DNA of 64,000 bases from Callorhinchus milii (taxonomy: Eukaryota), in assembly GCF_018977255.1 (NCBI RefSeq), contig NW_024704743.1, positions 1 to 64,000 on the forward strand. Reading direction: 5' to 3'. Position 1 is the first letter of the stretch; each line of letters starts with the position of its first letter. Made by a program: the position numbers and the translations under genes. This document shows positions 1 through 63,296 of the stretch, piece by piece. The notes below the pieces were generated by a model that saw only the letters and a list, made by a program, of their open reading frames with translations, was not told the DNA's origin and ran no database searches.

Positions 1-3000
1 CCCCCACCCCCCCCTTTACACCTGCCCTCACTCACCTCTCAAACGCCCCTATGTCAGTCGCTGTCTCTCCTCAGATCTCTACCTCGTCCCCTCCTGAAAG
101 CTTAACCCGACTTCTGCGTCGACCGCCACTCCCGGCAGCACATTGCGCCTCCTAACCACTCTCCGTGTCAATAAAATCCTCCCGAGACCCTCTTCACGTG
201 CGGTTCTCCGGCCGCTTGTCCAGCTAGGACCCCCCCCCTCCCCGTTTTGGCTGTGGGGTTAACGGAGCTGAGGGGGAGGATTCCCTGACCCCAGTGACTG
301 GTCGGCCCTCCAGGTCCTGCCGATGGATGAGCCGGGGCCGGGCTGGGCGGCCATCAGCCGTGAGTGCCCTGGGACACTGCGGCCCCTCCTGGCTCAGGAA
401 CCGGGGACCAGAGACCGGCACCGAGGGGGAGTGGGGGCTCGATACCCACATTCCATTGCAAGACATGTCATCTCGGGGCTCCGAGATGACCCCACTTCCC
501 CCATACCCCCACCCCTTCCCCCTACCCCCAATGGAGGACAGTCACCAGTTGGGTCATCTGACATCCGACAAGTGAGGTACCAGGAACTCCCTTCGAGCTT
601 CCCGGGAGCGCGTTCGGTCATACAACCCCTTCGTGTGGGGTAACGTCTCTGAGCACTTCAGGGGTCGCGGAAAGGAGGGCATTGAACTGGAGTCAGTAAC
701 TCGTGGGCTATAAGTGAGGGACGGGAGTCCTCACTGGAGAGAACTCGAGCCCCAAAGTCATAATAAATAATCTTACACCATCTCCCTCTCACCCCCTTCT
801 CACGTTCCCCCCCCACCCGAACACCCCACCACCTCTCTCTCTCTCTCTCTCTCTTCGCACCGTTTCTTTTCCAATTCCAACTCGGACATTCCAGACTCAG
901 AATCGTCTCGCAGGCTAAGACCAGGTGGAACTCCGGGCCTCGGGTGCCTTCGGGACACCCTCCTGACGTGAAAGGTGCTGCTGCGTAAATGTCGACTGCG
1001 GTCGCCGTTGAATCGGTCGGGTCCGAAGTGCGATCTTAAGAGCGAGAGCCCAGAATCCCAATTCATCCCCCAGCCGTCGACACTGTCACCCTCGCTCAGT
1101 CCATCAGTGAGATCTGAATGGTTTATGTTCCGTGCAAAGCCTTCTCTTTTTTTGGGGGGGCGGGGGTGTGTGGTGGTGGGGGTTGGGGTGAGTGGGGGGA
1201 AAGGAGGGAGGAAGTTAGAAGGCTTCAGGGTGCCCACAAACGTCCTGTTACCCCCCCCCCAACACCCGTCACGGAACAAGTCTCCGTAATTCTGAACGCA
1301 ATCAAATACGCGGTGACCAAAAAAAAAAAAGTCCTGATCATGATAATCCCGGCCTTTTTGACACAGCGCCTCCTCGCGTCTTCGAGACGTCTCAAAGCGC
1401 TTCGCAGGGTATACCGTCGCGTGTAGTGACTGCGTGATGATTTGCGACACAATGTCTCATCCGTCCGTATCCGGCGATGGTGATTTTTTTTTTCTTTTTT
1501 AAAAGAGAATCGGGGAGATATCACGGTCCCTTCGGTCAAACACCTCCCCCCCCCCCCCACCCAACCCCCGCCGGACACTTGGCAATGAATGAAGTCCTTC
1601 GAAATACAATCATCGTTGATTCCGCACGTTCAGAGTCGTGGGGGAGAGAGAGAGAGAGAGAGAAAACGGCGGGGAGGTGGCGGGGGTGGGGTTGAGGGGT
1701 TAACCAAACATTGTGGACGGACACCCTGTAGGTCATGTTCAAAGCCTTCTTTTTCGGGATGGGTGGGTGGAGGAAGGCAGGTTTCCCCCATGACACCCGC
1801 CACGTACCCTCGTTGGGGAGGAGTGTGTGTGTGTGTGTGTGTCTGTGTTGGGGGGGGGGGGGGGGGTGTTTGTCTTGCTGTAGCTTTGGCTCAAACTTTA
1901 CAGGTGTAGATCTCCTCTCGCTGTGTGCACTGCTTACACTCCACGTAGCAGCACCAACGCACCTGGCACTGACAGGCCCGGGTGACCACACGACTCTGGG
2001 TGTTGTGTCCGCGGCCACAGCAGATGCTGCCGCAGTTCTTGTCCTTGTAGCACTTGCGGGCAGCCGTGCCGGGGGAGTACTTGTTGGGGCGGCAGAAGCT
2101 GGGGGAGTCATCGATGTGGACCAGGTCGATGGTCCTGGGTATGTGGCTGTGCTGCAGGGCGGTGGCCGTGGCCGTGGCCTTCCTGGAGGCCACCATCTCG
2201 CCCTCTCCGTGGCCTCGTTTCTGGCGCTGCCGATCTTCAGCGAGCCCTCGTACTTGTGCTTCAGGAGCTTGCCGATCTCGTGGAAGGGCAGGAGCTGCCG
2301 CCAACAGGTACGGACGGTGCAGGAGCCGGACACACCGTGACACTTACAGGTGGTCTCGACACCGGACTTGATGACCTGCGAGAGAGAGAGAGAGCGAGAG
2401 AGAGAGAGAGAGTGAGTGAGTCACCCACCTACGGAGTAGCCGAGGACCTTAAACCCTCTGGTCCCTCACACAGCGTGCAACCGCTCGCTCGCTCGTTCAC
2501 TCACTCACTCACTCACTCACTCACTCACTCACTCGACAACAACAACAACAGGCGTGGCAAGGGAGGGGGCGGGCGTGGGGGGGGAGCGGTCGAGGCAGAG
2601 GGACTGTGGGTGGGGGCAGAGAGAGGCTGAAGGAATGAGTGATGACGGTGGGGACGGGACGGGACGGGCCAGAGGGGACAAGGTGTGGGGTGGGGGGTGG
2701 GGGAGTGGGGAGTGTGGTGGGTGGGTTGAGACAGAGAGTTCAAGAGATTTGGGCATAATGGCTGAGTTATCAGATGATTTAACTAGTTATTAATAATACC
2801 TACCGTTAATAACTAACGGTATTATTAATTAACGCGGTTACAAATTAATAGGAACGGTTCATATGAATATAACTAACGCCCACAACCAGGTATTAATTAC
2901 AATTAACGTCAATGAGTAACAGTGGCAATAAATGATTATTATTAATCATTAATATTGCAAATAATAACCTGATGTCTTGGATGACGCCCCTCACGTCTCG

Positions 3001-3230
3001 GGAGGACAATTCAAAGCTCCTCGCGAGACTGAACTGAACCGGGAGTGCGAGTGACGTTTCATCCGAAAGGACTCTCGACAATTTGGGGCTCTCTCCCCCC
3101 CCTCACACCCCCCCACCCCCCTATCACCCCAGTCCTCGCCGGGCTCCACTGGCTCCCTGTCTCGCACATGTTTTCAAACCCTTTCGCGCCCTGGCACCCC
3201 CCCACACCCCCCCCCCCCCAACCCAACTCC
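1..3230. repeat. Left arm of a long inverted duplication (runs off the window start); reverse complement of 9634-12879
   Basis: Direct comparison: nt 15-20 TTTACA pairs with 12860-12865. ORFs recur in mirror image (800..1450- / 11425..12077+, 2893..3081- / 9658..9975+). Differences are mostly homopolymer/microsatellite lengths. Confidence 0.97.
1891..2375 (-). pseudogene. wnt9a: wnt9a last coding exon, left copy, 1-nt deletion frameshift at ~2207-2208
   Basis: Acceptor ctctcgcAG at 2377-2376, then [19 protein letters not shown]. Length is 485 nt versus 486 nt for the right copy (GCCACGGAGAG vs GCCACGGGAGAG). The ORF track splits it over two frames (1536..2333 and 1891..2343). Confidence 0.85.
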
Positions 3231-4109
3231 AACACCCGTTGCCTCCGTTCCACCGCTTTCAGCCCCGACCCCCACACAGAAACTCTTGGAACGCTCTCCC
3301 TCCATCCCTCTCTCCGCCTCGCCCCCCCCAACCCTTCCTGCCCCACCACCTTCAGGTCGGGCCCGAAGACCTTTCTCGGGGACCCTAACCTGCGTGAGGG
3401 GCTCAAGTGCTTGCGAGCGCGAGCGCCTGAGCGCTTGAGCACTCAAGCGCGTGAGCCGCGGCTGCCCCCGAAATACCTGTCAGGATGACGGAACCAGGAG
3501 CGGAGCCGACACGTGTGTCCCCCCCCCGCCCCCCCACCCCACTCCCGCCACCTGGGCTCAGATCAGGGCAGCAATCCAACCCCATGTTCATACAGGAAAA
3601 ATCTCCCGCTGCCAACCGCAGCTCCTTCCCCACGGGAAGTAAACAGATTTGGCGACGTCAGTATGAGTTCCTCTCTAGGTGTGATTATACGCAGCCACGC
3701 ACATCATAATCTGGCCCGAGCTGCAGGAAATCATACGCTGGTTTGTGGCAGTCGGCAAGTGTTTCTAACCCCCGTGCGTGTGGACAGGCGGCGCAGTGTC
3801 GGGGGGAGCTTCACTCTGCCTCTAACCCCCGAACCTGGGAGCGTGGACGGACGCACGGTGTGGAGGGAGCTTTACTCCCGTCTCTCACGCTCCCTTCTCT
3901 TTCCAGACAGTCCACCTGAACAGGCAGACGAGGCTCCTGTTTAACATCGCACCCGAAGGACGGCGCCTTCGACATTGCGGGACCGCTCGCACCCGCCCCC
4001 CCCCCCTCCCTCCCACCCCCCACCCCCCAACTCTGCACTGGAGCATCCGCTTAGACTATGAGCTCAAAGTCCTGCTTTGGGGCTTGAACCAATTAACCTT
4101 GTGAGCCTG

Positions 4110-4144
<35 letters not shown>

Positions 4145-4454
4145 GCGAGCCAGGCTGAGAGCAGTGTGTTTACTTGTCCCCAAGGCGTAGAAACGGAGAG
4201 AGAGAGAGCGAGAGAGCGAGAGCGAGAGAAAGACTAAAAAAGAGAGCGAAGGAGAGAAGAGAGCGAGACGGAGAGAGAGAGGGGAGAGAGAGAGAGAGAG
4301 AGAGAGAGAGTAGGTGAAAGGAAATTAGTTTGAGCGGTGAATGTAATGGAGACCTGAAGTCATGAATCACCTCATTCTCACGCTGGACCAGCCGGGCCGG
4401 CAATGACAACACAGCCTGTTAACCAGAATGCGGTCATTGACCGGGCAAAGCTGT

Positions 4455-4541
4455 GCACACTCACTCCCGCTCGCCTCGGAGACAGGAGGTTCGTGGGTTC
4501 GAGCCCCCCGAACGTCTGAGCTCACAGTCCAGGCTGACGGG

Positions 4542-4574
<33 letters not shown>

Positions 4575-4930
4575 TGCGTGTGCGAGAGAGAGAGAGAGAG
4601 AGAGACGCACTGTCAGAGACTCCGTCCTTCAGATGAGACGTTAAACCTCACTCACGCGCTCCCCGTCTGTGCCCTGTTTCAGGCAGACGTTAAAGACCAC
4701 CCACCGCGCTGTTGTGGGGGTGGGGGGGGGGGGGGGGGTGGGGTGGAAAAGAGAAGGTAGTTTCGCTCTCTCTCTCTTTTTCTCTCTCTCTCTCTCTCTC
4801 TATCGGTTCCCTGGGCCGCAATCCCCCAAATAACACCGAAGCCGTTTGTAGGGAATTTCTTTGCTCGCAAATTGGTGCTGTTTTTTGCCTACGGAATACA
4901 CAGTCACTACACTTTACGGTAAGATCTTGG
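4455..4930 (+). mobile_element. Deu-domain SINE family B (SacSINE1/AmnSINE-like). Other copies at about 3930-4100-, 13140-13310+, 16580-16810-, 20990-21190-, 32035-32270+, 46200-46370-, 54040-54295-
   Basis: GTGGGTTCGAGCCCC...CTGAGCTCACAGTCCAGGCTGAC...GCACTGTCAGAGAC.CCGTCCTTC.GATGAGACGTTAAACC...CAGGC.GACGTTAAAGA resembles the Deu domain as I recall it. Confidence 0.75.
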
Positions 4931-5695
4931 GAAGGTCACGGGTCCCACCCCAGAATGATCTGGGGGCGTATTAAAAATAATAATAATAATAATCCTTGCG
5001 TTTGATACAGCGCCTTATCACGTTCTCGAGGCGTCTCAAAGCGCTTCACGGGATATACTGTAAAGTGTAGTGACTGTGTATTTTGTTTCGCGGGCGTCCC
5101 ACAAACAGTCGTGGATGGAGTGACCAATCTGTTCCCTTCCTCCCAAATTAATATTAATAATATAATAAGAAGAACCCTTGCATTTGGTATTGCACCTCAT
5201 CGCATCGTTGAAGGGTCTCAAAGCGCTTCACAGGATTCAACAACAACAAGTTGCATTTACGTAGCCTCCTTCGCGCCGGGAGGACACCGTAAAGTGTAGT
5301 GACTGCGGGTTTTGCGGGCGAACTGCGGCAGGCAGTTCGCACACCGCCACGTCACCGCAAACAGCCGTGAAGTGGGCCAGCGATTCGATCCGGGGGGACT
5401 TGCGTGCGATTGGCTGCGATTTGTTTGGCCCGCAAAACACACAGTCACTACGCTGTGCAGCGTAGCCTGCAAAGCGCTCTGAGACGTCTCGAAGACGTGA
5501 TAAGTTGATAAGTCTGGCGTAGTGGGGAGGGAAGGGGTGGGAGCGCGAGTGAGGTGGCGGTGGGAGGGCGGCGGGGGCGGCGGGGGGTGGTGGGGGGGGA
5601 GTGAGCGCTAAGCCAGGAGTGGGAGAGAGGAGAGGCACGAGCGAGCGGGCGAGCGAGCGAGTGAGCGAGCGTCAGCGAAGGAAGCACTTGCTCTC

Positions 5696-5729
<34 letters not shown>

Positions 5730-6144
5730 GGTGATGACGTACTGAGATTGTAACACAAGGCAAAGGCAGAATGAGTCAGGAATGTTATTCCTCCCGACAG
5801 ATGTGTGAGGATGAAAAATGAAGGCAGAGAGCGAAGGGGGCTCACTTGGGAAGCACTTTACAGGCTGCTCAGTGTTTGAGAGCCTCTGCGAGACCCGCAG
5901 CCTTTTGGCCGGCAACCCAACTCCACGTCAGGCCTCTCGCCCGGACCTTATGCTAAGCCTCTGCTTGGCTCCAACCCTCGCGCTCTCGCCTCTGGGCTAG
6001 AAGGTCACACACACACACACACACACCCTCACCCACTGAGCGCTCACGGTCCAGGCTGACGCACCAGCGCAGAGCTGGGGGGGGGGGAGGTGGGGTGTGT
6101 GGGTGGGGCGGCGGCGGGGGGTGGGGGGTGAGACAGAGACAGAG

Positions 6145-6176
<32 letters not shown>

Positions 6177-6260
6177 CAGGGGAATGGGGTTAGAGTAGAG
6201 AGCTCCAGTGTAATGGGGTGTGGGGGGGGGGAGAGCGAGCACCAGCGCAAACACGATGGG

Positions 6261-6294
<34 letters not shown>

Positions 6295-6558
6295 GAGAGT
6301 AGGGGAATAGGGAAATCTCGGAGCTGTGGCTTTTCTGCTGCGGAGAACAATTCCTGTCTGCAGTCGTGGGTTTTATTAGAGACAGATGCACACTCCGCTC
6401 ATCTGGAGCCCAAACCCTTCTGGGGATCAAGGCTTCCCTGATCCAATGCAATAATAATAATAATAATCATCGCAGCCCCGACAGAAACTGCGGCAAAATG
6501 GCTTCTCGAGACCGTGGCCGTTTGGGCGGGATCTGGCGGGGCGGCAAAACGGCGGCAG

Positions 6559-6592
<34 letters not shown>

Positions 6593-6841
6593 CAACGACA
6601 ACAACAACAGTAACAATAACCGTCCTTGGGCTTGACCCGGCGCCTCTCGGCGTCTCGAAGCGCTCCGCGGGAGATACCGTGAAGCGTGGTGACTTGGGTA
6701 TTTTGCGTGGGCGGAACGCGGCGGCCAAGGTCTCGAAGGGTCGGGGTGCGTGGGGTGGGGGGGGGGGGGGGTGGGCAAGGAGGGAGCGAGGCCAAGAGAT
6801 GGAGAGGGAGAGCGAGAGAGAGAGACGGGGAGAAAAGGTAC

Positions 6842-7107
6842 CTTGATGCCCACGTTGGTGTTGTGAAGGTCCACTCGGGCTCTCAGGTCCTTGTTGGACT
6901 TCTTCTGGCCGATGAACTCCTTGACGAACTTGTTGCTGTACCGGAGGTTGTCTCCGCAGCCCCCCCACTGCCAGGCCTCGCGGTTCTCCAGATCCGGAGC
7001 CTCGTCGCACGTGCAGCGTTCCATACGCCCGGCGCTGCAGGCCTTGGCCACCGCGTGCGTCAGCCCGGCCGAGGAGATAGCGTAGAGGAACGCTGTCTCT
7101 TTAAAAC
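6842..7107 (-). CDS. wnt9a: Wnt-9a exon 3 (266 nt, phase 1 to 0)
   Basis: AG at 7109-7108, GT at 6841-6840. Encodes (G)[53 protein letters not shown]...[11 protein letters not shown], typical of Wnt9a. Confidence 0.96.
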
Positions 7108-8584
7108 CTGAGGGTGAGGCGAAAAAATCGTCATCGTCGTCGTCGTCGTCGTAACGGTAAAACTCACGTAAGTCCAATCAGTGTAAATCATACAATCGCC
7201 TAAGACTTTCAGGGTGGTCCAATTGGCGGCCCATGGGCCGCATCCGGCCCCCCAAACCCACCGACGTGAGGACGTCAGGGATTTGGACCCGAGCTGGGGG
7301 TCGCGATCAGGAGGGGGTGGAGGGTGGTGGGTGGGGGGGGGTGTGGGGGTGGGTAGGAGGGCGTCCGAGGATGCGTGGGATGGAGTTCCAAAGGGCGGGA
7401 GCAGAGAGGCTGAAGGGTGGGGAGGGCCGGGCGGGGGAAGGTGGAGCAAGCCTGAACGGAGGGCGGGGAGAGGTCTACTTGCAGTCACAGAGGTTGGATG
7501 GAGCAAAGCCATGGAGGGCTTTGAAGGAGACACAAAAATAGCTGCAGCTCAATGAGGCCATTCCCGCCCTCAGCGCCGTCTAAATTATACACCTGTCCAC
7601 CTCCCGTTCGTGAGTTAATAATCCGCACGAGTTGGACGCGACTCGAGACTTTACGTAAGTTGAGACGTCTCAAAGCGCTTCTGGGAAGCGTAGTGACTGT
7701 GTGCTTTGTGGGCGAATCGCGGCAGCCAATCGCGATCATCTTCGCGGCTTCTTTTTTGCGAGACGTCGCTCTGAGCGTTGGCCTCACGAGACACACAGTC
7801 ACTACGCTTTGCCGTACAAATCCTGCGAAGTGCTTTGAGACGCCATCCACCCGGAACCCAATTTCCCTGCTCTTTAATAATAATAATAATAATAATAATA
7901 ATCGTCGGGAGGATGTCTCGAAGCGTTTTACCAGATTTAGTGTGAAGTGTAGTGACTGTGGGTCAAGCTGACGGCCCCACGAACAGCCGTGAAGTGAGCC
8001 GGTCACCTTTATCTGGACTGTGAGCTCAGATTCCCCTAACGTGGGGTTTGAACCCACAACCTCCTCGAATCGTAGACTCTTTCAGCACAGAAGTCCCCTC
8101 GCCTCGCCCCCTCCCACGCCTCGCCCTCTCCCTCGCCTCGCCCCCTCCCTCGCCCTCTCCCTCGCCTCACCCCCTCCCTCGCCTCACCCCCTCCCTCGCC
8201 CCCTCCATCACCTCCTCCAAAGCCCGTCTCAAGACCCTCTTCTTCGACCGCGCCTTCAGCCACCCTCCCCACCCCCCCCCCCCCCCCCACCGAACCCTCC
8301 CGGCCCTCCACCCTCTCCTGAGCCCAGCCCCCAGCCCCAGCCCCCATCCCCCAGCTCGGGGCACATCCCTGACCGTCCGGCGCCCCGGGAGCGTCCTCCC
8401 GACTCTTCCCGAAACGCCCTCAGACAAAGTCCCCGAACCCCTGACGCAAGTGGCCGGTGGGCGGCTTCGCGCCCGCGGGACACCAGCTGTGGCCAAAATG
8501 GCCGCCCTCGCACCACCTTTGAGGGTTTTGAGGCCCGAGGGTGCGGCGCGCGGGCGCGGGCGGGCGCGGGCGGGCGCGACTGAC

Positions 8585-8844
8585 CTCTCTTGAGAAGGTT
8601 GCTGCGGTAACGACCCTCCAGGGTGCAGTTCCACCTCTCGAAGTGGAACTGGTAGCGGCACTCCAGGGCGGACATGCTGATGGCCTCTATGAGGGTCTCG
8701 GCCACCCCGGGGTCCCGCCGACACATGCGTCGCTGTTTCCTCTCCAGCTTCAGCCGGTCGCAGGCCTTGAAGTGCGCCTTGCCCTGCGCCAGACCCGACT
8801 CGTGGCTCAAAGGGGGGATGGTGAGTGGTTCATGACCTGTGAGT
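8585..8844 (-). CDS. wnt9a: Wnt-9a exon 2 (260 nt, phase 2 to 1)
   Basis: AG at 8846-8845, GT at 8584-8583. Encodes [12 protein letters not shown]...[71 protein letters not shown] is the Wnt9a rather than Wnt9b form. Confidence 0.96.
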
Positions 8845-9633
8845 CTGAGAGAGAAGCACCGGGGAGGGGGACGGGGTCGGGGGACGGGACGGGGGGGGGG
8901 GGGGGAACGGGGTTATCAGGGCGGTCACACAATTCCCTGCACCCACGATCGACCCGCAATCCCTGACCTTCCCCACCTGCCCCTCTATTTGCCCGGCGGT
9001 CAGTAGGGACCCGGTTAAGTCGGTTGGTGGGGGGTGGGAGGTGCGGGGGTGGGGGGGGTAACTGCCGCCTTTGGCCCACAAAACACCCCCCCCCATCCCC
9101 ACCCCCACCCCCCCCCACCCCACCCCAGCGATGTATTGGAGCGACAGCTGAATCCTGAGATGGGGGTTTTGAACCCACAACCTTCTGACTCACATTATTA
9201 TTATTATTTTTATTAACATTATTATGACCGTCATAAGGAAAACTTGCCTAAGGTTTCGCCCGGGTCCTCTCACTTCCCAGGCGGGCGCTCTTAACCACTG
9301 CGCTTACGGGGGGGACTCCTTAATACCCCGTAAAGTCCCTCTTTCAGACATATTTTCATTGCATCAAAGACCAGGATTATTTACAATGTTATTTTAAGCC
9401 GTGTGCTAATTATCACGTTGAAACGGTTATGAAACGGCGGGTTTTCCCGCCCCCCCCCCCCACCACCTCCCCCCCCCCCCCCCCCCGCCGCCCCATATTT
9501 CAGGGGGACCTCCTATGAGGGATATCGCTGTGTAAATCTCTGCTTAGCTTCAACTTAGCTGAATTTTCTGGTAACGAAAACAGTGTGTATTTAATTTAAG
9601 GCCGTCTGAAGTTCAGATTTTATTTATTGTTTC

Positions 9634-12600
9634 GGAGTTTGGGATGGGGGGGGGGGGGTGTGGGGGGGGTGCCAGGGCGCGAAAGGGTTTGAAAACATGT
9701 GCGAGACAGGGAGCCAGTGGAGCCCGGCGAGGACTGGGGTGATAGGGGGGTGGGGGGGTGTGAGGGGGGGGGGAGAGAGCCCCAAATTGTCGAGAGTCCT
9801 TTCGGATGAAACGTCACTCGCACTCCCGGTTCAGTTCAGTCTCGCGAGGAGCTTTGAATTGTCCTCCCGAGACGTGAGGGGCGTCATCCAAGACATCAGG
9901 TTATTATTTGCAATATTAATGATTAATAATAATCATTTATTGCCACTGTTACTCATTGACGTTAATTGTAATTAATACCTGGTTGTGGGCGTTAGTTATA
10001 TTCATATGAACCGTTCCTATTAATTTGTAACCGCGTTAATTAATAATACCGTTAGTTATTAACGGTAGGTATTATTAATAACTAGTTAAATCATCTGATA
10101 ACTCAGCCATTATGCCCAAATCTCTTGAACTCTCTGTCTCAACCCACCCACCACACTCCCCACTCCCCCCACCCCCCACCCCACACCTTGTCCCCTCTGG
10201 CCCGTCCCGTCCCGTCCCCACCGTCATCACTCATTCCTTCAGCCTCTCTCTGCCCCCACCCACAGTCCCTCTGCCTCGACCGCTCCCCCCCCACGCCCGC
10301 CCCCTCCCTTGCCACGCCTGTTGTTGTTGTTGTCGAGTGAGTGAGTGAGTGAGTGAGTGAACGAGCGAGCGAGCGGTTGCACGCTGTGTGAGGGACCAGA
10401 GGGTTTAAGGTCCTCGGCTACTCCGTAGGTGGGTGACTCACTCACTCTCTCTCTCTCTCTCGCTCTCTCTCTCTCTCGCAGGTCATCAAGTCCGGTGTCG
10501 AGACCACCTGTAAGTGTCACGGTGTGTCCGGCTCCTGCACCGTCCGTACCTGTTGGCGGCAGCTCCTGCCCTTCCACGAGATCGGCAAGCTCCTGAAGCA
10601 CAAGTACGAGGGCTCGCTGAAGATCGGCAGCGCCAGAAACGAGGCCACGGGAGAGGGCGAGATGGTGGCCTCCAGGAAGGCCACGGCCACGGCCACCGCC
10701 CTGCAGCACAGCCACATACCCAGGACCATCGACCTGGTCCACATCGATGACTCCCCCAGCTTCTGCCGCCCCAACAAGTACTCCCCCGGCACGGCTGCCC
10801 GCAAGTGCTACAAGGACAAGAACTGCGGCAGCATCTGCTGTGGCCGCGGACACAACACCCAGAGTCGTGTGGTCACCCGGGCCTGTCAGTGCCAGGTGCG
10901 TTGGTGCTGCTACGTGGAGTGTAAGCAGTGCACACAGCGAGAGGAGATCTACACCTGTAAAGTTTGAGCCAAAGCTACAGCAAGACAAACACCCCCCCAC
11001 TCCCCCCCCCCCCAACACAGACACACACACACACACACACTCCCTCCCCAACGAGGGTACGTGGCGGGTGTCATGGGGGAAACCTGCCTTCCTCCACCCA
11101 CCCATCCCGAAAAAGAAGGCTTTGAACATGACCTACAGGGTGTCCGTCCACAATGTTTGGTTAACCCCTCAACCCCACCCCCGCCACCTCCCCGCCGTTT
11201 TCTCTCTCTCTCTCTCTCTCTCCCCCCCACGACTCTGAACGTGCGGAATCAACGATGATTGTATTTCGAAGGACTTCATTCATTGCCAAGTGTCCGGCGG
11301 GGGGTTGGGGTGGGGGGGGGGGGCGGGGAGGTGTTTGACCGAAGGGACCGTGATATCTCCCCGATTCTCTTTTAAAACAAGAAAAAAAAAATCACCATCG
11401 CCGGATACGGACGGATGAGACATTGTGTCGCAAATCATCACGCAGTCACTACACGCGACGGTATACCCTGCGAAGCGCTTTGAGACGTCTCGAAGACGCG
11501 AGGAGGCGCTGTGTCAAAAAGGCCGGGATTATCATGATCAGGACTTTTTTTTTTTTGGTCACCGCGTATTTGATTGCGTTCAGAATTACGGAGACTTGTT
11601 CCGTGACGGGTGTTGGGGGGGGGGTAACAGGACGTTTGTGGGCACCCTGAAGCCTTCTAACTTCCTCCCTCCTTTCCCCCCACTCACCCCAACCCCCCAC
11701 CACCACACACCCCCCGCCCCCCCAAAAAAAGAGAAGGCTTTGCACGGAACATAAACCATTCAGATCTCACTGATGGACTGAGCGAGGGTGACAGTGTCGA
11801 CGGCTGGGGGATGAATTGGGATTCTGGGCTCTCGCTCTTAAGATCGCACTTCGGACCCGACCGATTCAACGGCGACCGCAGTCGACATTTACGCAGCAGC
11901 ACCTTTCACGTCAGGAGGGTGTCCCGAAGGCACCCGAGGCCCGGAGTTCCACCTGGTCTTAGCCTGCGAGACGATTCTGAGTCTGGAATGTCCGAGTTGG
12001 AATTGGAAAAGAAACGGTGCGAAGAGAGAGAGAGAGAGAGAGAGGTGGTGGGGTGTTCGGGTGGGGGGGGAACGTGAGAAGGGGGTGAGAGGGAGATGGT
12101 GTAAGATTATTTATTATGACTTTGGGGCTCGAGTTCTCTCCAGTGAGGACTCCCGTCCCTCACTTATAGCCCACGAGTTACTGACTCCAGTTCAATGCCC
12201 TCCTTTCCGCGACCCCTGAAGTGCTCAGAGACGTTACCCCACACGAAGGGGTTGTATGACCGAACGCGCTCCCGGGAAGCTCGAAGGGAGTTCCTGGTAC
12301 CTCACTTGTCGGATGTCAGATGACCCAACTGGTGACTGTCCTCCATTGGGGGTAGGGGGAAGGGGTGGGGGTATGGGGGAAGTGGGGTCATCTCGGAGCC
12401 CCGAGATGACATGTCTTGCAATGGAATGTGGGTATCGAGCCCCCACTCCCCCTCGGTGCCGGTCTCTGGTCCCCGGTTCCTGAGCCAGGAGGGGCCGCAG
12501 TGTCCCAGGGCACTCACGGCTGATGGCCGCCCAGCCCGGCCCCGGCTCATCCATCGGCAGGACCTGGAAGGGCCGACCATTCACTGGGGTCAGGGAATCC

Positions 12601-12879
12601 TCCGCCTCAGCTCCCGTTAACCCCACAGCCAAAACGGGGAGGGGGGGGGGTCCTAGCTGGACAAGCGGCCGGAGAACCGCACGTGAAGAGGGTCTCGGGA
12701 GGATTTTATTGACACGGAGAGTGGTTAGGAGGCGCAATGTGCTGCCGGGAGTGGCGGTCGACGCAGAAGTCGGGTTAAGCTTTCAGGAGGGGACGAGGTA
12801 GAGATCTGAGGAGAGACAGCGACTGACATAGGGGCGTTTGAGAGGTGAGTGAGGGCAGGTGTAAAGGGGGGGGGGGGGG
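9634..12879. repeat. Right arm of the long inverted duplication (may extend to ~13063 if the left arm continues outside the window)
   Basis: Reverse complement of 1-3230; begins at a G-run around 9641-9670. Confidence 0.97.
10482..10967 (+). CDS. wnt9a: Wnt-9a last coding exon, right copy, intact (486 nt, phase 0 to stop)
   Basis: Acceptor ctctcgcAG at 10480-10481. Uninterrupted [28 protein letters not shown]...[47 protein letters not shown], including the [10 protein letters not shown] lipidation motif. Confidence 0.95.
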
Positions 12880-14316
12880 GGTTGATGCGGGAGGGAGGAC
12901 AAGGCAGGGCAATGGTACTGAAAGGTTGGCTCTGTCAAAGGCCACAGACGCAGACACGATGGGCCGAATGGCCTCCTTCTGGGCTGTCATTTGCGCTGTT
13001 TCTCTGTTATTTGTTGTCTTGTCACTTAAATCGACCGGAGATGCTGGTGCCTGGGGTGACAGACAGCATCTGTCGGGTCTGATTAAGTCCCTCGCGCTCT
13101 CAGAATTTCCCCTCCCTCACCCCCCTCCTCCACATCGGGAACTTTCAGCTCACATTAGCCACTAGGCTGACGTTCCAGTGTAGTAGTGGGGGGGGTGGGG
13201 GGTGGCGGGAAGAGTTGGGTCTGCGTCGAAGGAGGTGTCGTCCTTTGGATGAGACGTTAAACCAAAATCCCGTCTGTGCCCCGATCGGTCGGACGTTAAA
13301 GATCGTCGATGCTAATCCCGGGCTTCATTTTGGAAGCCAATTAATTGTGTGTTTTAAAAAGAAGAAGGAAGAGAACTTTGCCGACTAACAAACTAACGTT
13401 TGATCGAATCCTGCGTCGCCTTAAACCCTCGGGGCTGGGAGCTGGGGCAAGGTCGAATTCCGGGGGCTTCGGAGGAGGGAGGGAGGGAGGGGTGGGTGGG
13501 GAGGGGAGGGGTGGGGGGGCGGAAAGGCGAGACTTAGATGTGTTCGAGGGTTTGGTTGGTTCGAAGCTTCAGTCCGCGTGACAATCGCCTAACGTCGATC
13601 ATCTTAACATGTGGGATTTCTTAACGGGATTTCTCAACGAGAAACCCGAGTGACGTGGCTGGGGGTGTGCGTGTGTGCGCGCGTGTGTGTGTGTGTGAGG
13701 GGTGGTGGGGTGGGGTGGGGTGGGGGGGCGCGGGGGATAAGGGGGGTACTCTGTACTCCTAATTTCTAAAGTTCTGGAGGGAGGGAGCAAGAGAGAGAGA
13801 TGTTGGGATTGCACAGTCCTTCGGCACATCGCGCTCCGGGAATGAAAGTCGGGGAAAGTTGCGTGTGTGTGTGCGCGCGTGTGCGTGCGCGCGCGTGTGC
13901 GTGTGCGTGCGCGCGCGTGTGCGTGCGTGTTACGCGTGAGCGAGAACGATTTAAACCATCGCAAAGCAGGGACTCGAAATCCGAAGCAGAGAGAGGGGGG
14001 GAGTTAGCGACTGCCGTGGAGGTGTTGGAGAATCGAGTACTTATTGTACTTTTAACGATTTTAAAAATCCTTTTGGTCGCCCCCACACCCTCCTCCCCCC
14101 CCCCCCCACCGCGCCCCACCCCACCCCGCCCCACCCCAACCCCCCACCCCACTCCCACCACCCACCCTATGTAATGCCCAAATCAAGACACTCTGCCTTG
14201 TCATTAGAGAGACAGTAAGACGTAGAAGAAGATTCCTAAGGTGTGAGTTAGCGCGTGAAAGAGAGAGAGCGAGAGACGGAGTGAGCGCGTGTGAGAGAAT
14301 GAGTGCTGGTAAGTGT

Positions 14317-14353
<37 letters not shown>

Positions 14354-16019: not shown

Positions 16020-16320
16020 GAGATATATATAATATATATTAAAACAAAACAAAGTTAAACGAAGTTTAAAATCTGGAAGGTGTCCCAGAGTGAGTTTTGT
16101 TTGTTACTTGCACTCCTGAGGGTAACGCTACTCAGGTTACCTTACGTCACTCTCTCGTTGAGAGGCTAAATTATTTTTCTTCTCTACCTCATGTGTATAA
16201 GCTTGTAGGTATTTTCTCATACTCTCAGAGCCACTGTTGAGAATGTATTTTTAAGTTATTGACCACCTTTGTATAACAGCAACAAACAAAAAAAAAGCAA
16301 CAGAAATTTGGGAAATAAAG
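16020..16320 (+). promoter_or_regulatory. Probable distal 3'UTR block and polyadenylation signal of wnt9a
   Basis: AT-rich unique island with AATAAA (16314-16319), a let-7 8mer seed match CTACCTCA (16184-16191) and a miR-130/301 seed match TTGCACT (16108-16114). A similar AT-rich island lies at ~14650-14820. Function is inferred. Confidence 0.45.
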
Positions 16321-18206: not shown

Positions 18207-18231
18207 NNNNNNNNNNNNNNNNNNNNNNNNN
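18207..18231. other. Assembly gap (25 N)
   Basis: N run. Confidence 1.
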
Positions 18232-26204: not shown

Positions 26205-26860
26205 TCTGTCACCCCAGGCACCAGCATCTCCGGTCGACTTAAGTGACAAGACAACAAATAGTGGAAATGACAGCCCAGAAGGAGGCCATTCGGCCCATCG
26301 TGTCTGCGTCTGTGGCCTTTGACAGAGCCAACCTTTCAGTACCATTGCCCTGCCTTGTCCTCCCTCCCACATCAACCCCCCCCCACCCCCCCCTTTACAC
26401 CTGCCCTCACTCACCTCTCAAACGCCCCTATGTCAGTCGCTGTCTCTCCTCAGATCTCTACCTCGTCCCCTCTTGAAAGCTTAACCCGACTTCTGCGTCG
26501 ACCGCCACTCCCGGCAGCACATTGCGCCTCCTAACCACTCTCCGTGTCAATAAAATCCTCCCGAGACCCTCTTCACGTGCGGTTCTCCGGCCGCTTGTCC
26601 AGCTAGGACCCCCCGCCTCCCCGTTAGTTAGTTAGTTAGTTAGTTGGGGCTTTGGCTGTGGGGTTAACGGGAGCTGAGGGGGAGGATTCCCTGACCCCAG
26701 TGACTGGTCGGCCCCTCCAGGTCCTGCCGATGGATGAGCCGGGGCCGGGCTGGGCGGCCATCAGCCGTGAGTGCCCTGGGACACTGCGGCCCCTCCTGGC
26801 TCAGGAACCGGGGACCAGAGACCGGCACCGAGGGGGAGTGGGGGCTCGATACCCACATTC
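26205..26860. repeat. Third, ~650-bp partial copy of the duplicated segment (direct to 1-453, inverted to 12424-13063)
   Basis: Near-identical sequence; the ORF-track peptides recur (26094..26414- vs 12845..13165+; 26734..27114+ vs 294..575+). Confidence 0.95.
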
Positions 26861-58726: not shown

Positions 58727-58873
58727 CTACAGTAGTTTCCGGACTCTCCTGGTGTTGGTGTTGATTCGGGCCGTGGCTCGGTCAGTGGAGATTCCTATCA
58801 CGTCCAGGGTCTCGTCCTGACGTTCCAGCTCTGTCTCCGTGTCCAGGGCCAGACTTTTCAGCTTCCCGAGGAT
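58727..58873 (-). CDS. snap47: SNAP47 last coding exon (C-terminal SNARE motif)
   Basis: ctttcAG acceptor at 58875-58874; ILGKLKSLALDTETELERQDETLDVIGISTDRATARINTNTRRVRKLL-stop. Confidence 0.94.
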   Translation of the reverse strand: MLGKLKSLALDTETELERQDETLDVIGISTDRATARINTNTRRVRKLL

Positions 58874-59639
58874 CTGAAAGCGAGACCCGGAGAGATGCTC
58901 AGCTCGTTCCCACGGCAACGGGTCCCCAGCCCATCCCTAGCGCAACCGTCCCATCCCGTCCCCACGGCAGTGGGGTTTGACAAGGGCAAGGACTGGGGTA
59001 ATGGGATAACGGAGGTACGGAGTTTAGTCCGCGGCGGAGTTTTGAAGGGGAGACCGGCGAGGAGGGCGTTCGAGTCGTCGAGGCGGCAAAGGCGTGGACG
59101 AGTGTTTCAGCAGCTTTTAGAGTGAGATACGGAGGGAGGTGGGCAACGTGGAGGAAAATGGTCCGGACGTGAGGTAGGAAGGGAAGCCGGGGATGGTACC
59201 CAAGGTTTCGCTCTGCCCTGCCTGGGAATCGAACCCGGGTCCTCCGGCTTGCGAGGCGAGCGCTCGAACCACCCCAGGCTACAGGACCCGGCAATGACGG
59301 GTTGGAATGTTACCCCCCCCCCCTCCTCCTCCGGGGGTGAGGGGATGGAGACAGGTGTTGTCGGGGCTGTGAGCAGGCAGTGCTTCTGGGCAGACACGCT
59401 GAAAACTGACTGGGAGGTGGAAGGAAAGAGAAAATTGCTTCATTGACAGCTGTGGGCAGCAGCTGTACAATCTCTGACACAGCCCGTGGCACGGACTCAG
59501 GTTAGTAACTGTGAGGAAAAACTGAGTCTGGTCCCAGCGTCAGGGAATGAAAGGGTCAGTGTTTTGGGGAACGAGCCGGGCACGGTCTCTGGTGCCCTCT
59601 GTTGCTCACTCCCGGATTCACTGCTGGAGACAACACCTG

Positions 59640-59693
59640 CGAGAGAGAGAGAGAGATGGAGAGAGACAGAGAGGGAGACACACGGACAGAGAG

Positions 59694-59728
<35 letters not shown>

Positions 59729-59814
59729 CAGAGAGGGAGACACACAGACAGAGAGAGCGAGAGAGAGAGAGAGAGATAGAGATACAGAGAGGGAGACACA
59801 CGGACAGAGAGAGC

Positions 59815-59847
<33 letters not shown>

Positions 59848-60445
59848 GGAGACACACAGACAGAGAGAGCGAGAGAGAGAGACAGAGTGAGACAGAGAGG
59901 GAGACACACAGACAGACAGAGAGAGCGAGAGAGACAGAGCGAGACAGAGAGGGAGACACACAGACAGAGAGAGCGAGAGAGAGAGACAGAGCGAGACAGA
60001 GAGGGAGACACACAGACAGAGAGAGCGAGAGAGAGAGACAGAGCGAGACAGAGAGGGAGACACACAGACAGAGAGAGCGAGAGAGAGACAGAGTGAGACA
60101 GAGAGGGAGACACACAGACAGAGAGAGCGAGAGACAGAGACAGAGCGAGACAGAGAGGGAGACACACAGACAGAGAGAGCGAGTGAGAGACAGAGCGAGA
60201 CAGAGAGGGAGACACACAGACAGAGAGAGCGAGAGAGAGAGATACAGAGAGGGAGACACACAGACAGAAAGAGCGAGAGAGAGAGAGACAGAGCGAGACA
60301 GAGAGGGAGACACACAGACAGAGAGAGCGAGAGAGAGAGTAAGAGAGAGGGAAAAAGAGAGGGAGACACACGGACAGAGAAAGAGAGACAGAGACACACA
60401 TACACACACAGAGCCAGAGAGAGAGAGAGAGACACACACACAGAA

Positions 60446-60476
<31 letters not shown>

Positions 60477-60580
60477 GAGGAGAGTCAGAGAAAGAGAAAA
60501 CTCAGCGAGTGAGAGAGACTCAGAGCGAGAGAGAGAGAGAGAAAGAAAGAGAGAGAAAGACAGAGAGAGAAAGACAGAGA
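59640..60580. repeat. GA-rich minisatellite (~46-50 bp unit) in the last snap47 intron
   Basis: Unit GAGACAGAGAGGGAGACACACAGACAGAGAGAGCGAGAGAGAGAGACAGAGC. Confidence 0.9.
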
Positions 60581-60689
60581 ACCAGCACGAAAAAGGGGTG
60601 AGGGGAGGGCTCGGCATCAGCCTCCGCCACTGTTAAACGCTCCGAGACTCTGCCCCCCCCCCCGCAAGTTGCTGAAATTTAAGAGTGAA

Positions 60690-61140
60690 TCCGGGAGATT
60701 ATTTTAAAACAATAAAGGGTTCTGATAGGGGAGGCTACGGAGAAACTATTCCCTCCGATGGTATGGTGGTGGTGGTGATGGTGGTGGTGGTGGTGGTGGT
60801 GGTGGTGGGGGGGGAGCGGGGGGGGGGTCGCGGCGGGAATCGAGAACAAGGGGCATCATCCAAAAATCAAAGCCCGGCCATTTAGGAGCGAAATCGGAGG
60901 CGGTTTTTCACCCAAAGGGTTCGTGGAAATCTGGAACTCTTCCCCCCCCCACCCCCCCCCCCCCCAAATGCCTGTGGGCACTGAATCCATTCACATCGTC
61001 AAGACTGAGGTGGATTAGATGCCAGGGACACCGGGCAAAGGTGGGTAATCGGAGCTGAAGTACGGATTAGCCGTGATTTAATACGGTGACGGAACTGGCT
61101 CCAGGGGCTGAATGGCCTCCTCCTGTTCCTGTGTTTCTAG
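60690..61140 (+). mobile_element. CR1 LINE 3' end within a snap47 intron. Shorter CR1 tails at about 23850-23915, 29330-29550, 36460-36595, 55535-55650
   Basis: ...TTCACCCAAAGGG..GTGGAAATCTGGAACTCT...AGCCGTGAT...GGGGCTGAATGGCCTCCTCCTGTTCCT tail. Confidence 0.8.
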
Positions 61141-61197
61141 GGGAGGGCCTGCGGGTGTTAACGGACGCTCCCTCCCCTCACTCACTCACTCACTCAC

Positions 61198-61310
61198 CTG
61201 CCGGAGCTCGTGAACCTCGGACTCGGACACGCTCTGGGCCGTGACTTGCTGGAGCTGCCCCTCTCCGCTCGCTGTCCCGGGGTGCATCACCTTGTCCAGG
61301 AACCCGCTGG
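61198..61310 (-). CDS. snap47: SNAP47 third coding exon (113 nt, phase 1 to 0)
   Basis: cccactgcAG acceptor and CAG|GTGAGT donor; (A)SGFLDKVMHPGTASGEGQLQQVTAQSVSESEVHELRQ. Confidence 0.9.
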
Positions 61311-61672
61311 CTGCAGTGGGACACAAAAAGGTTTGGGGGGAATGGGGGGCATTCCCTGCTTATCCTGAACTGTCCCTCGCTCGTCTCCAGCCCCCCCCCC
61401 ACCCACCGCCCCTTCCCACCCCGGGCGCCCGATTGCGTCTCGAAGCGCTTCACAGGGTAATGTGGTGGTGGGGACTGTTTGTGGGCGGAGGGGGGTGTGG
61501 GGAAGGGAGACGTCGCATTCTCCGGGCGAAACGTTTCCGGGCCGAGCCGACCGCGCCCGGCGACGACGTTCCCCCCCAACTCCCCCCCCCACAGCGAACG
61601 CCCGTGGATCGAAGCCCACCCTCCCCCCAACCCCCCACCCCGACGTTACTTAAGAACCGTCGCCCGTCGCAC

Positions 61673-62177
61673 CTGATTTCCAGAGGGAGCCGGAGCTCTC
61701 GGACACGGGGGAGTCTCCCGGCCGGAAGATTCCCAGCAGCTCGTCCCGGAAGAGGACCTTGCGGCAGTACTGGACCTCCATGACGGACAGCGCGGCGGAC
61801 ATGCGGGCCGAGGTCAGGTGGTAGGTCACGTCCGGGCGGCCGATGAAGCGTTGCCGCACGGTGACCTGGTAGGGGCTGCGGACCCTGACCTCGTCCACCT
61901 CCTCCCGGAGGTACCGGTGGACGGGCCGAGATTCCCAGTCCAGGATGTCCAGGCCGGAGCACAGCACGCACAGCGCTCCCTGCTGGAGGCCGGTGTCCGC
62001 GTCCCGGGAGTACAGCACCGGCACCTTGACGATGAGTCCGCCCTCGGCCGCGCCGCCTCCTCCATTCCCGCTTCCTCCATTCCCGCTTCCTCCGGCCCGC
62101 CTCCTCCGGCCCCGCCCGCCGCCCGCGATCTGCTCCCGAACGGCCACCAGGGCGGCGACTCGAGCTGCGTCAAAAGC
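61673..62177 (-). CDS. snap47: SNAP47 second coding exon, with an apparent 1-nt frameshift in the GC-rich linker (~62045-62135)
   Basis: AG 62179-62178, GT 61672-61671. LLTQLESPPWWPFGS is in one frame and EGGLIVKVPV...VRSPYQVTVRQRFIGRPDVTYHLTSARM...SLWKS in another. 505 nt is one base short of phase consistency. Confidence 0.9.
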
Positions 62178-62299
62178 CTGACCACGACAACAACTCATTA
62201 CATTCACGTTCGATCAGTCATCTTAATCATTGGATGTCTCGAAGCGCTTCACACGATACACTAATCATTGGATGTCTCGAAGCGCTTCGCACGACACAC

Positions 62300-62324
62300 N
62301 NNNNNNNNNNNNNNNNNNNNNNNN
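62300..62324. other. Assembly gap (25 N)
   Basis: N run, preceded by a 38-bp direct duplication (62224-62299). Confidence 1.
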
Positions 62325-62763
62325 GGTTAAGGTGTAGTGACTGTGCGACCGGTGGGCGAGACCCACAGCAGCCTCTCCCACCAACGCCCGTGGATCGCGG
62401 TGACCGATTTATTGTCACTATTAATTATTTTGTTCCTTTGGAAGGGATTATTACCCCCCAGGAAAAAGCCATCCGCCGACCGACTTAGCGACCGGATTCC
62501 TACCTACTGCTGGGTCCGCGCAGCCGCGCCTGTGGAGTGAGGAAGCGCTCGGGAATCGAACCCGGGTCCCCTCGCTCGCGAGGCGACTGCTCTAACAATC
62601 GAGCGACAGGGAACTCCGCCACAGGAGCGTTCTAACCGATACGTAAGAAAAGTTTATTTGGTTGACCGTGTGTGGGTGGGGCTGTGCGGGGGGTTGGGGA
62701 GGGGGGGGCTGCGTGTGGGAGGGGGGGGGTGGGGGGGATCTGCCTTGTCGGAGGGGCCATTAC

Positions 62764-63296
62764 CTGTTAGCCACGTCCATGTCCGACTCGATCTTGTCCA
62801 GCCCCTTCGTGATGCGGTCAAACTGCTCCCCTTGGTGGTGGAGGACGGTCGTCGTGTCCTCCAGCCGCCTCTGGGAGCTGGTGGCCAGGCTGATCAGCTC
62901 CTTGCCCTTGGATGAGGGGCTTCCCCAGGGCGAGGCCGCGGCCCCCTCCCCGTTCCCGCTCCCCTCCCCGCCCCCCTCCTGGCCCAACAGCTGTTCCCTC
63001 CAGAAGTGTTCCAACACGTTGAAGACCGCTGCCCGGCTGGGCCGGAGCGAGGAGAACCAGTGCTTGTGGCCCCCGCTGGCTAGCACCGTCAGGGAGCTGA
63101 ACACCAGGCTAGACGTCTCCTTCCTGACCTCCAGCATCGCCGACAGCTCCAGGCGGACCAGCGGCTCCGGCCTCTCCTTCTCCGCCCGGAACACCAGTTG
63201 GCTGGGGGTCATCTGGAGGGTCCCATATGCCCAGCGCCGCTCGCCACTCACGTAGTAAGCTCCCGGCCAGGAGTACAGACACAGGTCACTGGTCAT
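62764..63296 (-). CDS. snap47: SNAP47 first coding exon (PH-like domain and start of first SNARE motif)
   Basis: ATG at 63296, upstream acceptor AG 63328-63327, donor GT 62763-62762. MTSDLCLYSWPGAYY...KHWFSSLRPSRAAVFNVLEHFWRE...RLEDTTTVLHHQGEQFDRITKGLDKIESDMDVANR matches my recollection of SNAP47. Synteny with WNT9A agrees. Confidence 0.95.

What the first reader, a model, noticed from the sequence alone, without database searches (positions are those of the whole stretch)
1..12879. wnt9a exons 2-3 sit in a 6.4-kb cassette between two >=3.2-kb inverted repeats, each carrying the last exon: an invertible ON/OFF-like architecture
Seen: exons 2-3 (minus) point at the left last-exon copy, which is frameshifted. 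The intact copy is on the plus strand, and no exon 1 was found on the minus strand to the right. Known: in human, WNT9A and SNAP47 are convergent, so with snap47 on minus, wnt9a should be on plus with exon 1 left of the window. Inference: flipping 3230-9634 between the repeats yields a perfect plus-strand gene (exon 2, exon 3, intact exon 4, UTR), with the defective copy lying antisense in intron 1. Three explanations remain: (a) a real duplication with the unique middle mis-oriented by the assembler, (b) a real inversion polymorphism switching wnt9a off/on by repeat recombination, (c) a purely artefactual duplication.
Basis: partly seen in the sequence, partly recalled or inferred. Interest (0 to 1): 0.8.

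Follow-up and report, generated by a model that had tools for sequence, protein, structure and literature searches.

The report
Probable assembly false duplication at wnt9a
The apparent flip-switch around the wnt9a gene of the elephant shark is most likely a genome-assembly error at the broken start of a scaffold, where one 3.2-kb stretch was written twice and the neighbouring piece put in backwards, not a real on/off device.

Summary
The layout is in the sequence: arms 1-3230 and 9634-12879 are 98.6% identical and inverted; wnt9a exons 2-3 (minus) point at the left, frameshifted exon-4 copy. But the window is the very start of a 125.6-Mb scaffold, so the left arm has no outer flank. The arms differ like consensus errors, not paralogues: 16 of 17 indels, and all 12 single-base ones including the frameshift, shorten the left arm; bases 454-3220 carry 14 indels and no substitution. 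The expected upstream block was not found: wnt9a exon 1 and most of the wnt3a-like neighbour, whose scaffold C62 ends inside an exon. Best reading (0.8): one real copy, assembled twice, terminal piece inverted. Against: no N-gap at the join; 0 of 39 other scaffold ends show this geometry; no reads were laid, so neither junction is tested. Rivals: heterozygous 6.4-kb inversion (0.08), real duplication with misoriented middle (0.08), real flipping cassette (0.04). The scan noted other local inverted duplications in this genome, none of this scaffold-end kind.

The parts
1..3230 (-). Left arm: inverted near-copy of 9634-12879 that runs into the first base of scaffold C2; probably a second, lower-quality assembly of the same locus
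   Evidence: 98.6% identity; 16 of 17 indels shorten this arm; window = C2:1-64000
1891..2375 (-). Left copy of the wnt9a exon-4 coding part, frameshifted by one missing G in a GGG run at 2208; otherwise identical to the right copy
3221..3234 (-). Left junction (intron 3 continuing from the middle into the arm), a G-rich motif on the gene strand; gene-contiguous, expected to be real under every model
3231..9633 (-). Single-copy middle (6.4 kb): part of intron 3, exon 3, intron 2, exon 2 and 0.8 kb of intron 1
6842..7107 (-). wnt9a exon 3, intact, 95% identical to catshark Wnt-9a
8585..8844 (-). wnt9a exon 2, intact, about 80% identical to vertebrate Wnt-9a
9628..9660 (+). Right junction: intron-1 sequence joined without an N-gap to the start of the right arm, at an imperfect G-rich look-alike of the left junction (3 extra bases and 1 substitution in about 17 bases, then a G run); the one join that is novel and suspect
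9634..12879 (+). Right arm: end of intron 3, intact exon-4 coding part and proximal 3' UTR, continuous with single-copy sequence to its right
10482..10967 (+). Intact wnt9a exon-4 coding part with stop codon (161 aa)
16314..16319 (+). First AATAAA downstream of the intact stop codon; candidate poly(A) signal, outside both arms (function inferred, not shown)
26205..26860 (-). Third, partial inverted copy (of 12424-13063) with 9 substitutions and 4 indels against the right arm; looks like a real, older local duplicate and serves as the internal control
58730..63296 (-). snap47 coding exons, facing the plus-strand wnt9a exon 4 across about 48 kb

Best explanation
The genome has one wnt9a, on the plus strand: exon 1, intron 1, exons 2-3, exon 4, UTR, then snap47 facing it. 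The assembly breaks in this GC- and G-run-rich block. The piece holding exons 2-3 plus the following 3.2 kb was put at the scaffold start in reverse, while the same 3.2 kb is also the start of the main sequence. So the two 'repeats' are two assemblies of one locus (possibly one from each haplotype), the left one from few reads and carrying homopolymer deletions, among them the exon-4 frameshift. The join at 9634 was made without a gap at a short G-rich look-alike, by a spurious overlap or a chimeric read. Shown: position at the scaffold start, error spectrum, missing neighbouring exons, gene order. Inferred: that the right junction does not exist in DNA, and how it arose.
For: (1) The window is C2:1-64000; the left arm ends at the first base of the scaffold. 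No telomere repeat in the window, 44 matches at the other end of C2. (2) In 1-3220 against 9645-12879: 16 of 17 indels shorten the left arm (binomial p=2.7e-4); 12 of 12 single-base indels do, nearly all in G or C runs; 3 substitutions in all; 14 indels and 0 substitutions in 454-3220. The third copy against the right arm has 9 substitutions and 4 indels (Fisher p=0.003 for the whole arm; 1.5e-4 for 454-3220, a range chosen after seeing the data). (3) The assembly is broken in this block: unplaced scaffold C62 carries an Arf-family gene and the last exon of a wnt3-paralogue on the same strand and ends inside that gene's exon 3; its exon 2 and the rest of exon 3 were not found (best non-self hits 56-60% and 52%); wnt9a exon 1 was not found. 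(4) The paralogous block on C23 is wnt9b(-), wnt3(+), Arf(+), with one copy of each wnt9b exon; C62(+), a missing block, then plus-strand wnt9a reproduces it. (5) 12 of the 15 listed members of the catshark Wnt-9a cluster are full-length-sized proteins of 364-377 aa from sharks and rays (13 with the query). (6) False duplications joined by wrong gap-filling, and false chimeric palindromes of raw-read length (7-17 kb), are described in PMC9516828 (passages and section 10); this structure spans 12.9 kb.
Against: No reads were laid, so depth over the arms and both junctions are untested. There is no N-gap at 9634, whereas a gap is the commonest sign between false duplicates (PMC9516828). The geometry is not a routine defect of this assembly: 0 of 39 other scaffold ends (15 kb each) have a >=1-kb inverted arm that runs off the end. 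The one-sided deletions show that the left arm is of poor quality and that the arms are nearly identical; they do not show that the left arm is not a real, very young copy. The 3 substitutions all lie in the 455 bp shared with the third copy and there the left arm matches the third copy (p about 0.003), which this model explains only by allelic difference or cross-polishing. Real local inverted duplicates do occur in this genome (third copy; C5 repeat).
Confidence: 0.8

Rival explanations
1. Heterozygous 6.4-kb inversion, no duplication. One chromosome has the normal gene, the other has exons 2-3 inverted between the two short G-rich look-alikes (a null allele). The arms are then the two alleles of one locus.
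For: Explains the gap-free join at a look-alike motif, the arm that ends at the scaffold end and allele-like differences (a 12-bp GAGT microsatellite change, 3 substitutions).
Against: Needs a rare null allele of a developmental gene in the sequenced animal. G-rich look-alikes are common here (7 matches of a 20-base motif within 2 edits and 134 G/C runs of 8 or more in the window), so a spurious join needs no real event. The reciprocal junction and all upstream sequence are absent from the assembly.
Confidence: 0.08
2. Real, very young or conversion-homogenised inverted duplication: a >=3.2-kb antisense copy of intron 3/exon 4/UTR lies in intron 1, and the assembler misoriented the middle between the two arms. 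The gene is intact; the frameshift in the left copy is probably still an error.
For: All junctions in the assembly would be real, so no gap is needed. The genome has other local inverted duplicates: the third copy, a 6.8-kb pair at 94-99.8% near the start of C5, and unchecked earlier notes. Assemblies often break inside repeats.
Against: No substitution in 2,767 bp requires an extremely recent event; the real-looking duplicates differ mostly by substitutions (third copy 9 to 4; the two non-tandem pieces of the C5 pair 15 to 3). The left arm has no outer flank anywhere in the assembly. A 3.2-kb inverted pair in the pre-mRNA around two coding exons would be expected to disturb splicing (inference).
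Confidence: 0.08
3. Real invertible cassette: both arms exist and recombination between them flips exons 2-3, giving ON and OFF alleles in the population or in somatic cells.
For: Geometry alone. Inverted repeats of this size and identity mediate recurrent inversions in humans (PMC3961182, PMC6415612; search listing and abstract starts).
Against: Needs the previous rival to be true first. Only one orientation is on record. The OFF state would cut exon 1 from exons 2-3 of a single-copy developmental gene (loss is perinatally lethal in mouse; recalled). No short crossover sites; the 'defective' copy looks like an error.
Confidence: 0.04

Closest known systems
False duplications in vertebrate assemblies (heterotype and homotype; false chimeric palindromes), Ko et al. 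2022, PMC9516828 (passages and section 10 read)
   Same: Near-identical partial gene copy on the same scaffold, one copy error-rich, gene split with missing exons, total span (12.9 kb) inside the 7-17 kb range given for false palindromes.
   Different: Their criteria rest on read depth, discordant pairs and k-mer counts, none measured here; no N-gap between the copies; a 6.4-kb single-copy spacer rather than a plain palindrome.
Gap-filling and contig-extension errors with low-coverage long reads (PBJelly, PMC3504050; DENTIST benchmark, PMC8848313; passages read)
   Same: Flank extension from few reads, inserted sequence of lower accuracy (89-95% in the benchmark), overfilled gaps suspected at inversions and scaffolding errors. 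The window has three gaps of exactly 25 N, a placeholder I recall from such gap-filling.
   Different: I do not know which programs built this assembly; the left arm is more accurate (about 99%) than unpolished fills; the 25-N convention is recalled, not read.
Inverted-repeat-mediated gene-disrupting inversions: F8 intron 1 and intron 22 inversions and other human polymorphic inversions (PMC6415612, PMC3961182, PMC8776779; search listing and abstract starts only)
   Same: If real: kilobase inverted repeats above 98% identity, one inside an intron, whose recombination would separate exon 1 from the rest of the gene.
   Different: There both repeats are anchored in unique flanks and both orientations are observed; here the left arm has no flank and one orientation is known.
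Site-specific invertible switches of bacteria (fim, Hin, shufflons; recalled)
   Same: Only the idea of a segment flipped between inverted sites.
   Different: Those use short crossover sites and a dedicated recombinase; the arms here are 3.2 kb of the gene's own intron, exon and UTR.

Membership tests
False duplication (Ko et al. 2022) | Haploid-level or lower read depth over each copy | not tested
   No reads were laid on the locus.
False duplication (Ko et al. 2022) | Assembly gap between the copies | tested here: not met
   N runs only at 18207, 32773, 62300; the paper allows a read-depth gap instead.
False duplication (Ko et al. 2022) | Read-depth gap or discordant pairs at the join | not tested
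   No reads were laid on the locus.
False duplication (Ko et al. 2022) | Erroneous k-mers enriched in one copy | tested here: inconclusive
   Proxy only: 16 of 17 indels and 12 of 12 single-base indels shorten the left arm; three can be polarised as left-arm losses (2208 by protein conservation, 265 and 309 by the third copy or repeat copies). No k-mer counts.
False duplication (Ko et al. 2022) | Copy bounded by a contig or scaffold end; gene left split or incomplete | tested here: met
   Left arm ends at C2 base 1; exon 1 not found; neighbour C62 ends inside an exon.
Inverted-repeat-mediated polymorphic inversion (F8 int1h type) | Two inverted repeats of high identity, hundreds to thousands of bases | tested here: met
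   98.6% over 3.2 kb in the assembly; whether both exist in DNA is open.
Inverted-repeat-mediated polymorphic inversion (F8 int1h type) | Each repeat anchored in unique flanks on both sides | tested here: not met
   Left arm has no outer flank; bases 12660-12879 match only C2:1-220 and the third copy.
Inverted-repeat-mediated polymorphic inversion (F8 int1h type) | Both orientations seen in molecules or individuals | not tested
   No reads; no second assembly of the species is held (no relatives).
Site-specific invertible switch | Short dedicated crossover sites at the cassette ends | tested here: not met
   The repeats are 3.2 kb of wnt9a intron 3, exon 4 and UTR; the only short shared motif is a low-complexity G-rich one with 7 look-alikes in the window.
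Site-specific invertible switch | Linked recombinase gene | not tested
   No family scan for recombinases was run; the genes identified in the window are wnt9a and snap47.

The most novel reading that the evidence does not exclude
Both arms are real: a very young antisense copy of wnt9a's last exon sits in intron 1 of the elephant shark gene, and recombination between the 3.2-kb arms flips exons 2-3, so that working and null orientations of a single-copy Wnt gene coexist among animals or among cells.
Probability: 0.04. Interest if true: 0.7.

Novelty: not a real feature. Interest (0 to 1): 0.1.

Why it matters
If the best reading holds, the value is curatorial. The wnt3a-wnt9a block of a much-used reference for early jawed-vertebrate evolution is broken. 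Reading along the minus strand gives a frameshifted wnt9a without exon 1, and most of the wnt3a-like gene is missing, so gene surveys could wrongly call loss or pseudogenisation. No protein of this species identical to wnt9a exon 2 or exon 4 was among the listed hits (87 of 175 and best 120 of 673 candidates), while its Wnt-9b and SNAP47 were there. The fix is concrete: reverse 3231-9633, drop 1-3230, and place C62 in front of C2. If instead the arms are real and flip, it would be a built-in null-allele generator in a developmental gene, like the F8 inversions, and worth a population survey.

Tried and rejected
Read evidence: one search listed 24 runs, 11 holding part of 3300-12800 (four at 0.45-0.49 of the words, seven at 0.05-0.18; no RNA holder on record). 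None was laid, so these shares are no evidence either way, and depth, junctions, splicing and the expressed exon-4 allele remain open.

Exon 1: not found by whole-genome search with catshark Wnt-9a; by the splice pattern GCNTAYTTYGGGTRAG (8 matches against 5 in the control; all 8 cut out and translated, none a convincing signal-peptide exon); by a start-to-YFG pattern (9 matches against 12 in the control, none plausible by eye); by local tblastn of ten N-termini (best E 0.18); or by a 31-residue query (0 candidates). These searches are weak: the splice pattern misses the wnt9b exon 1 of this genome, and the local tblastn scored that control exon only at E 1-5. So 'not found with these queries', not absence.

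A same-species Wnt-9a protein that would reveal exon 1: none among the listed hits.

'Fold-back at scaffold ends is systematic here': rejected; 0 of 39 other ends show a >=1-kb arm running off the end, 1 of 39 (C5 start) has a large internal inverted pair, and the end of C6 has 0.5-kb inverted pieces at 95-97%. The survey saw 15 kb per end (35 kb for C5 start, 20 kb for C62 end) and mainly large scaffolds, of 1,762.

Missed-adapter palindrome in its simple form: rejected, the spacer is 6.4 kb of single-copy gene sequence. 

Terminal deletion with inverted duplication: disfavoured, because the wnt3a-like last exon and the Arf gene beyond it exist on C62 and there is no telomere repeat at this end.

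Overlap of the window with C62 ends: only dispersed-repeat matches of 75-87%.

Literature: searches 'wnt9a + Callorhinchus milii' (4 papers) and 'wnt9a/inversion/inverted repeat/elephant shark/holocephal', 3 of 5 terms (27 papers, 10 listed, none of those 10 with wnt9a) showed no report of this structure. Searches for the head-to-head order confirmed only that SNAP47, WNT9A and WNT3A are neighbours in human (PMC7892373 passages); the strand order in human is recalled. PMC6060547, PMC4593336 and PMC8836289 (passages) added nothing decisive. No supplements were read.
Full report
Observation. The repeat is in the sequence: self-BLAST aligns 1-3230 with 12879-9634 at 98.6% over 3,258 columns. Between the arms lie 6.4 kb of single-copy sequence with wnt9a exon 2 (8585-8844) and exon 3 (6842-7107) on the minus strand, with canonical splice ends and compatible phase. 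The left exon-4 coding copy (2375-1891) lacks one G of a GGG at 2208; the right one (10482-10967, plus) is intact and 84% identical to catshark Wnt-9a. snap47 lies on the minus strand at 63296-58730. Proteins labelled Callorhinchus milii match this genome at 99-100% (Wnt-9b; SNAP47), so the animal is the elephant shark, a chimaera.

The window is G000:C2:1-64000, the first bases of a 125.6-Mb scaffold. The left arm therefore stops at the end of the assembly and has no outer flank. The window has no telomere repeat; the other end of C2 has 44 matches. Write A for the arm, M for the middle and a prime for reverse complement. The assembly reads A'-M-A-rest. The same letters can be read as two overlapping pieces of one normal gene, M'-A and A-rest, with the first piece reversed. 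In that reading the repeat borders are simply the ends of the two pieces, and only one join, 9633/9634, is new.

How the arms differ. Outside the junction motif (1-3220 against 9645-12879) there are 17 indels and 3 substitutions. 16 of the 17 indels shorten the left arm (binomial p=2.7e-4); the exception is a 12-bp GAGT microsatellite change. All 12 single-base indels are left-arm losses, nearly all in G or C runs, and the frameshift is one of them. From 454 to 3220 there are 14 indels and no substitution. Three losses can be polarised to the left arm: 2208 by protein conservation, 265 and 309 by the third copy or dispersed repeat copies. An internal control behaves differently: a third partial copy at 26205-26860 differs from the right arm by 9 substitutions and 4 indels (Fisher p=0.003 against the whole arm; 1.5e-4 against 454-3220, a range picked after seeing the data). 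One-sided homopolymer loss without substitutions is what a low-coverage long-read consensus gives (recalled), and not how a pseudogene decays. This shows that the frameshift is probably an error and that the arms are nearly identical. It does not by itself show that the left arm is absent from DNA.

The block is broken. On C23 the paralogous block reads wnt9b (minus, 9941008-9950241), wnt3 (plus, 9976371-9989480), Arf (plus, from 10052333). Unplaced scaffold C62 (320,429 bases) has an Arf-family gene (minus, 274342-278235) and, at its right end, the last exon of a Wnt 132/160 identical to the C23 wnt3 last exon, also minus; I call it wnt3a by paralogy and position. C62 ends inside that gene's exon 3: its last bases encode RSAMNRHNNEAGRV before a GT donor. 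Its exon 2 and the rest of exon 3 were not found, nor was wnt9a exon 1 (weak searches, see Tried and rejected). So C62(+), a missing stretch, then wnt9a on the plus strand facing snap47, restores the order seen in the paralogous block and recalled for human. The start of C2 is a break in hard sequence (52-68% GC per kilobase over the first 13 kb, 36 G/C runs of 8 or more), not a chromosome end.

The suspect join. At 9628-9660 intron-1 sequence passes into the right arm with no N. The bases there resemble the left junction imperfectly (three extra bases and one substitution in about 17, then a G run). Such motifs are common here: 7 matches within 2 edits of the 20-base motif in the window. A spurious overlap, a chimeric read or a real template switch could all use it; the sequence cannot tell them apart. 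The arms also lack a poly(A) hexamer; the first ones are at 16038 and 16314, so the left 'last exon' is probably incomplete.

Results against my reading. No reads were laid, so depth and both junctions are untested. There is no N-gap between the copies. The geometry is not routine: 0 of 39 other scaffold ends show a >=1-kb inverted arm running off the end within the 15 kb examined; 1 of 39 (C5 start) has an internal pair of 6.8 kb, whose two non-tandem pieces differ by 15 substitutions and 3 single-base gaps. All 3 substitutions between the arms fall in the 455 bp shared with the third copy, and there the left arm has the third copy's base, at 274 and 298 also the base of most dispersed repeat copies. 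Allelic difference with conversion, or cross-polishing, would explain it; I could not test either. Earlier unchecked notes of this scan describe other local inverted duplications in this genome as real and old, which raised my odds for a real duplication a little; look-ups for this kind of scaffold-end case and for nearby notes returned nothing.

Mechanism and odds. Best: one locus assembled twice, terminal piece inverted, joined at a G-rich look-alike (0.8). Shown: scaffold-start position, error spectrum, broken neighbours, gene order. Inferred: that the join is not genomic, and how it arose. Rivals: a heterozygous 6.4-kb inversion that led the assembler round a loop (0.08); a real very young duplication with the middle misoriented (0.08); a real flipping cassette (0.04), which needs the duplication to be real and has no positive evidence.

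Comparison with what is known. It works like the false duplications of Ko et al. (PMC9516828; passages and section 10): same-scaffold partial gene copies, more erroneous k-mers, joins made by wrong gap-filling, and false chimeric palindromes of 7-17 kb. Their read-based criteria were not tested, and the N-gap criterion is not met, so I say 'most likely', not 'is'. Flank extension from few long reads, its lower accuracy and overfilled gaps at inversions are described in PMC3504050 and PMC8848313 (passages); I do not know which programs built this assembly. If real, the nearest systems are repeat-mediated inversions such as those of F8 (listing and abstract starts), but the left arm fails the 'anchored in unique flanks' test. 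Two literature searches found no report of this structure.

Verdict. Interest 0.1; the useful product is a specific correction to the assembly and a warning against calling wnt9a or wnt3a lost in this species.

Noticed in passing
G000:C62:319069-320429 (L028): Unplaced scaffold C62 ends inside exon 3 of a wnt3a-like gene, with an Arf-family gene about 41 kb downstream on the same strand; it probably belongs directly in front of C2, across a missing block with wnt3a exons 1-3 and wnt9a exon 1.
   Followed up: yes
window 26205-26860: Third, inverted copy of 12424-13063 with 9 substitutions, a 26-bp insertion holding TAAC repeats and an 11-bp deletion; unique flanks on both sides. The left arm matches it at all three positions where the arms differ by substitution; unexplained.
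   Followed up: partly
G000:C5:4436-11194 and 12460-19220 (L039, L040, L073): A 6.8-kb inverted pair, 99.8% identical over 4.2 kb, around a 1.3-kb tandem-repeat spacer; the translations show histone H2B-like and degenerate H2A-like frames (recognised by eye) and LINE debris. Real palindrome or artefact not tested.
   Followed up: partly
G000:C597, C1593, C1469, C1689 (L011, L013, L031, L032): Four small unplaced scaffolds carry related copies of a wnt7-like gene (name by eye), 83-97% alike with many gaps (105 gap openings in 3.3 kb between L011 and L031); either a local expansion or redundant low-quality contigs.
   Followed up: partly
G000:C173, C192, C193, C257, C725, C768, C1340: Seven more small scaffolds carry divergent Wnt-family exons, several in near-equal pairs; not identified.
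   Followed up: no
window 14640-14900 and 16020-16330: Two AT-rich, non-repetitive blocks downstream of the intact exon 4, the second ending in AATAAA at 16314; may be parts of a 3' UTR of about 5.3 kb.
   Followed up: no
window 12398-12673 and 207-479: Part of each arm is a dispersed repeat with dozens of 77-90% copies across the genome.
   Followed up: partly
window 18207, 32773, 62300; 18303-19145: Three gaps of exactly 25 N, one between the first two snap47 coding exons; a tandem array of about 60-bp units follows the first gap.
   Followed up: no
G000:C23:9950241 (L015:2241): wnt9b exon 1 lies only about 0.9 kb from exon 2 and about 26 kb from wnt3 exon 2, head to head.
   Followed up: partly
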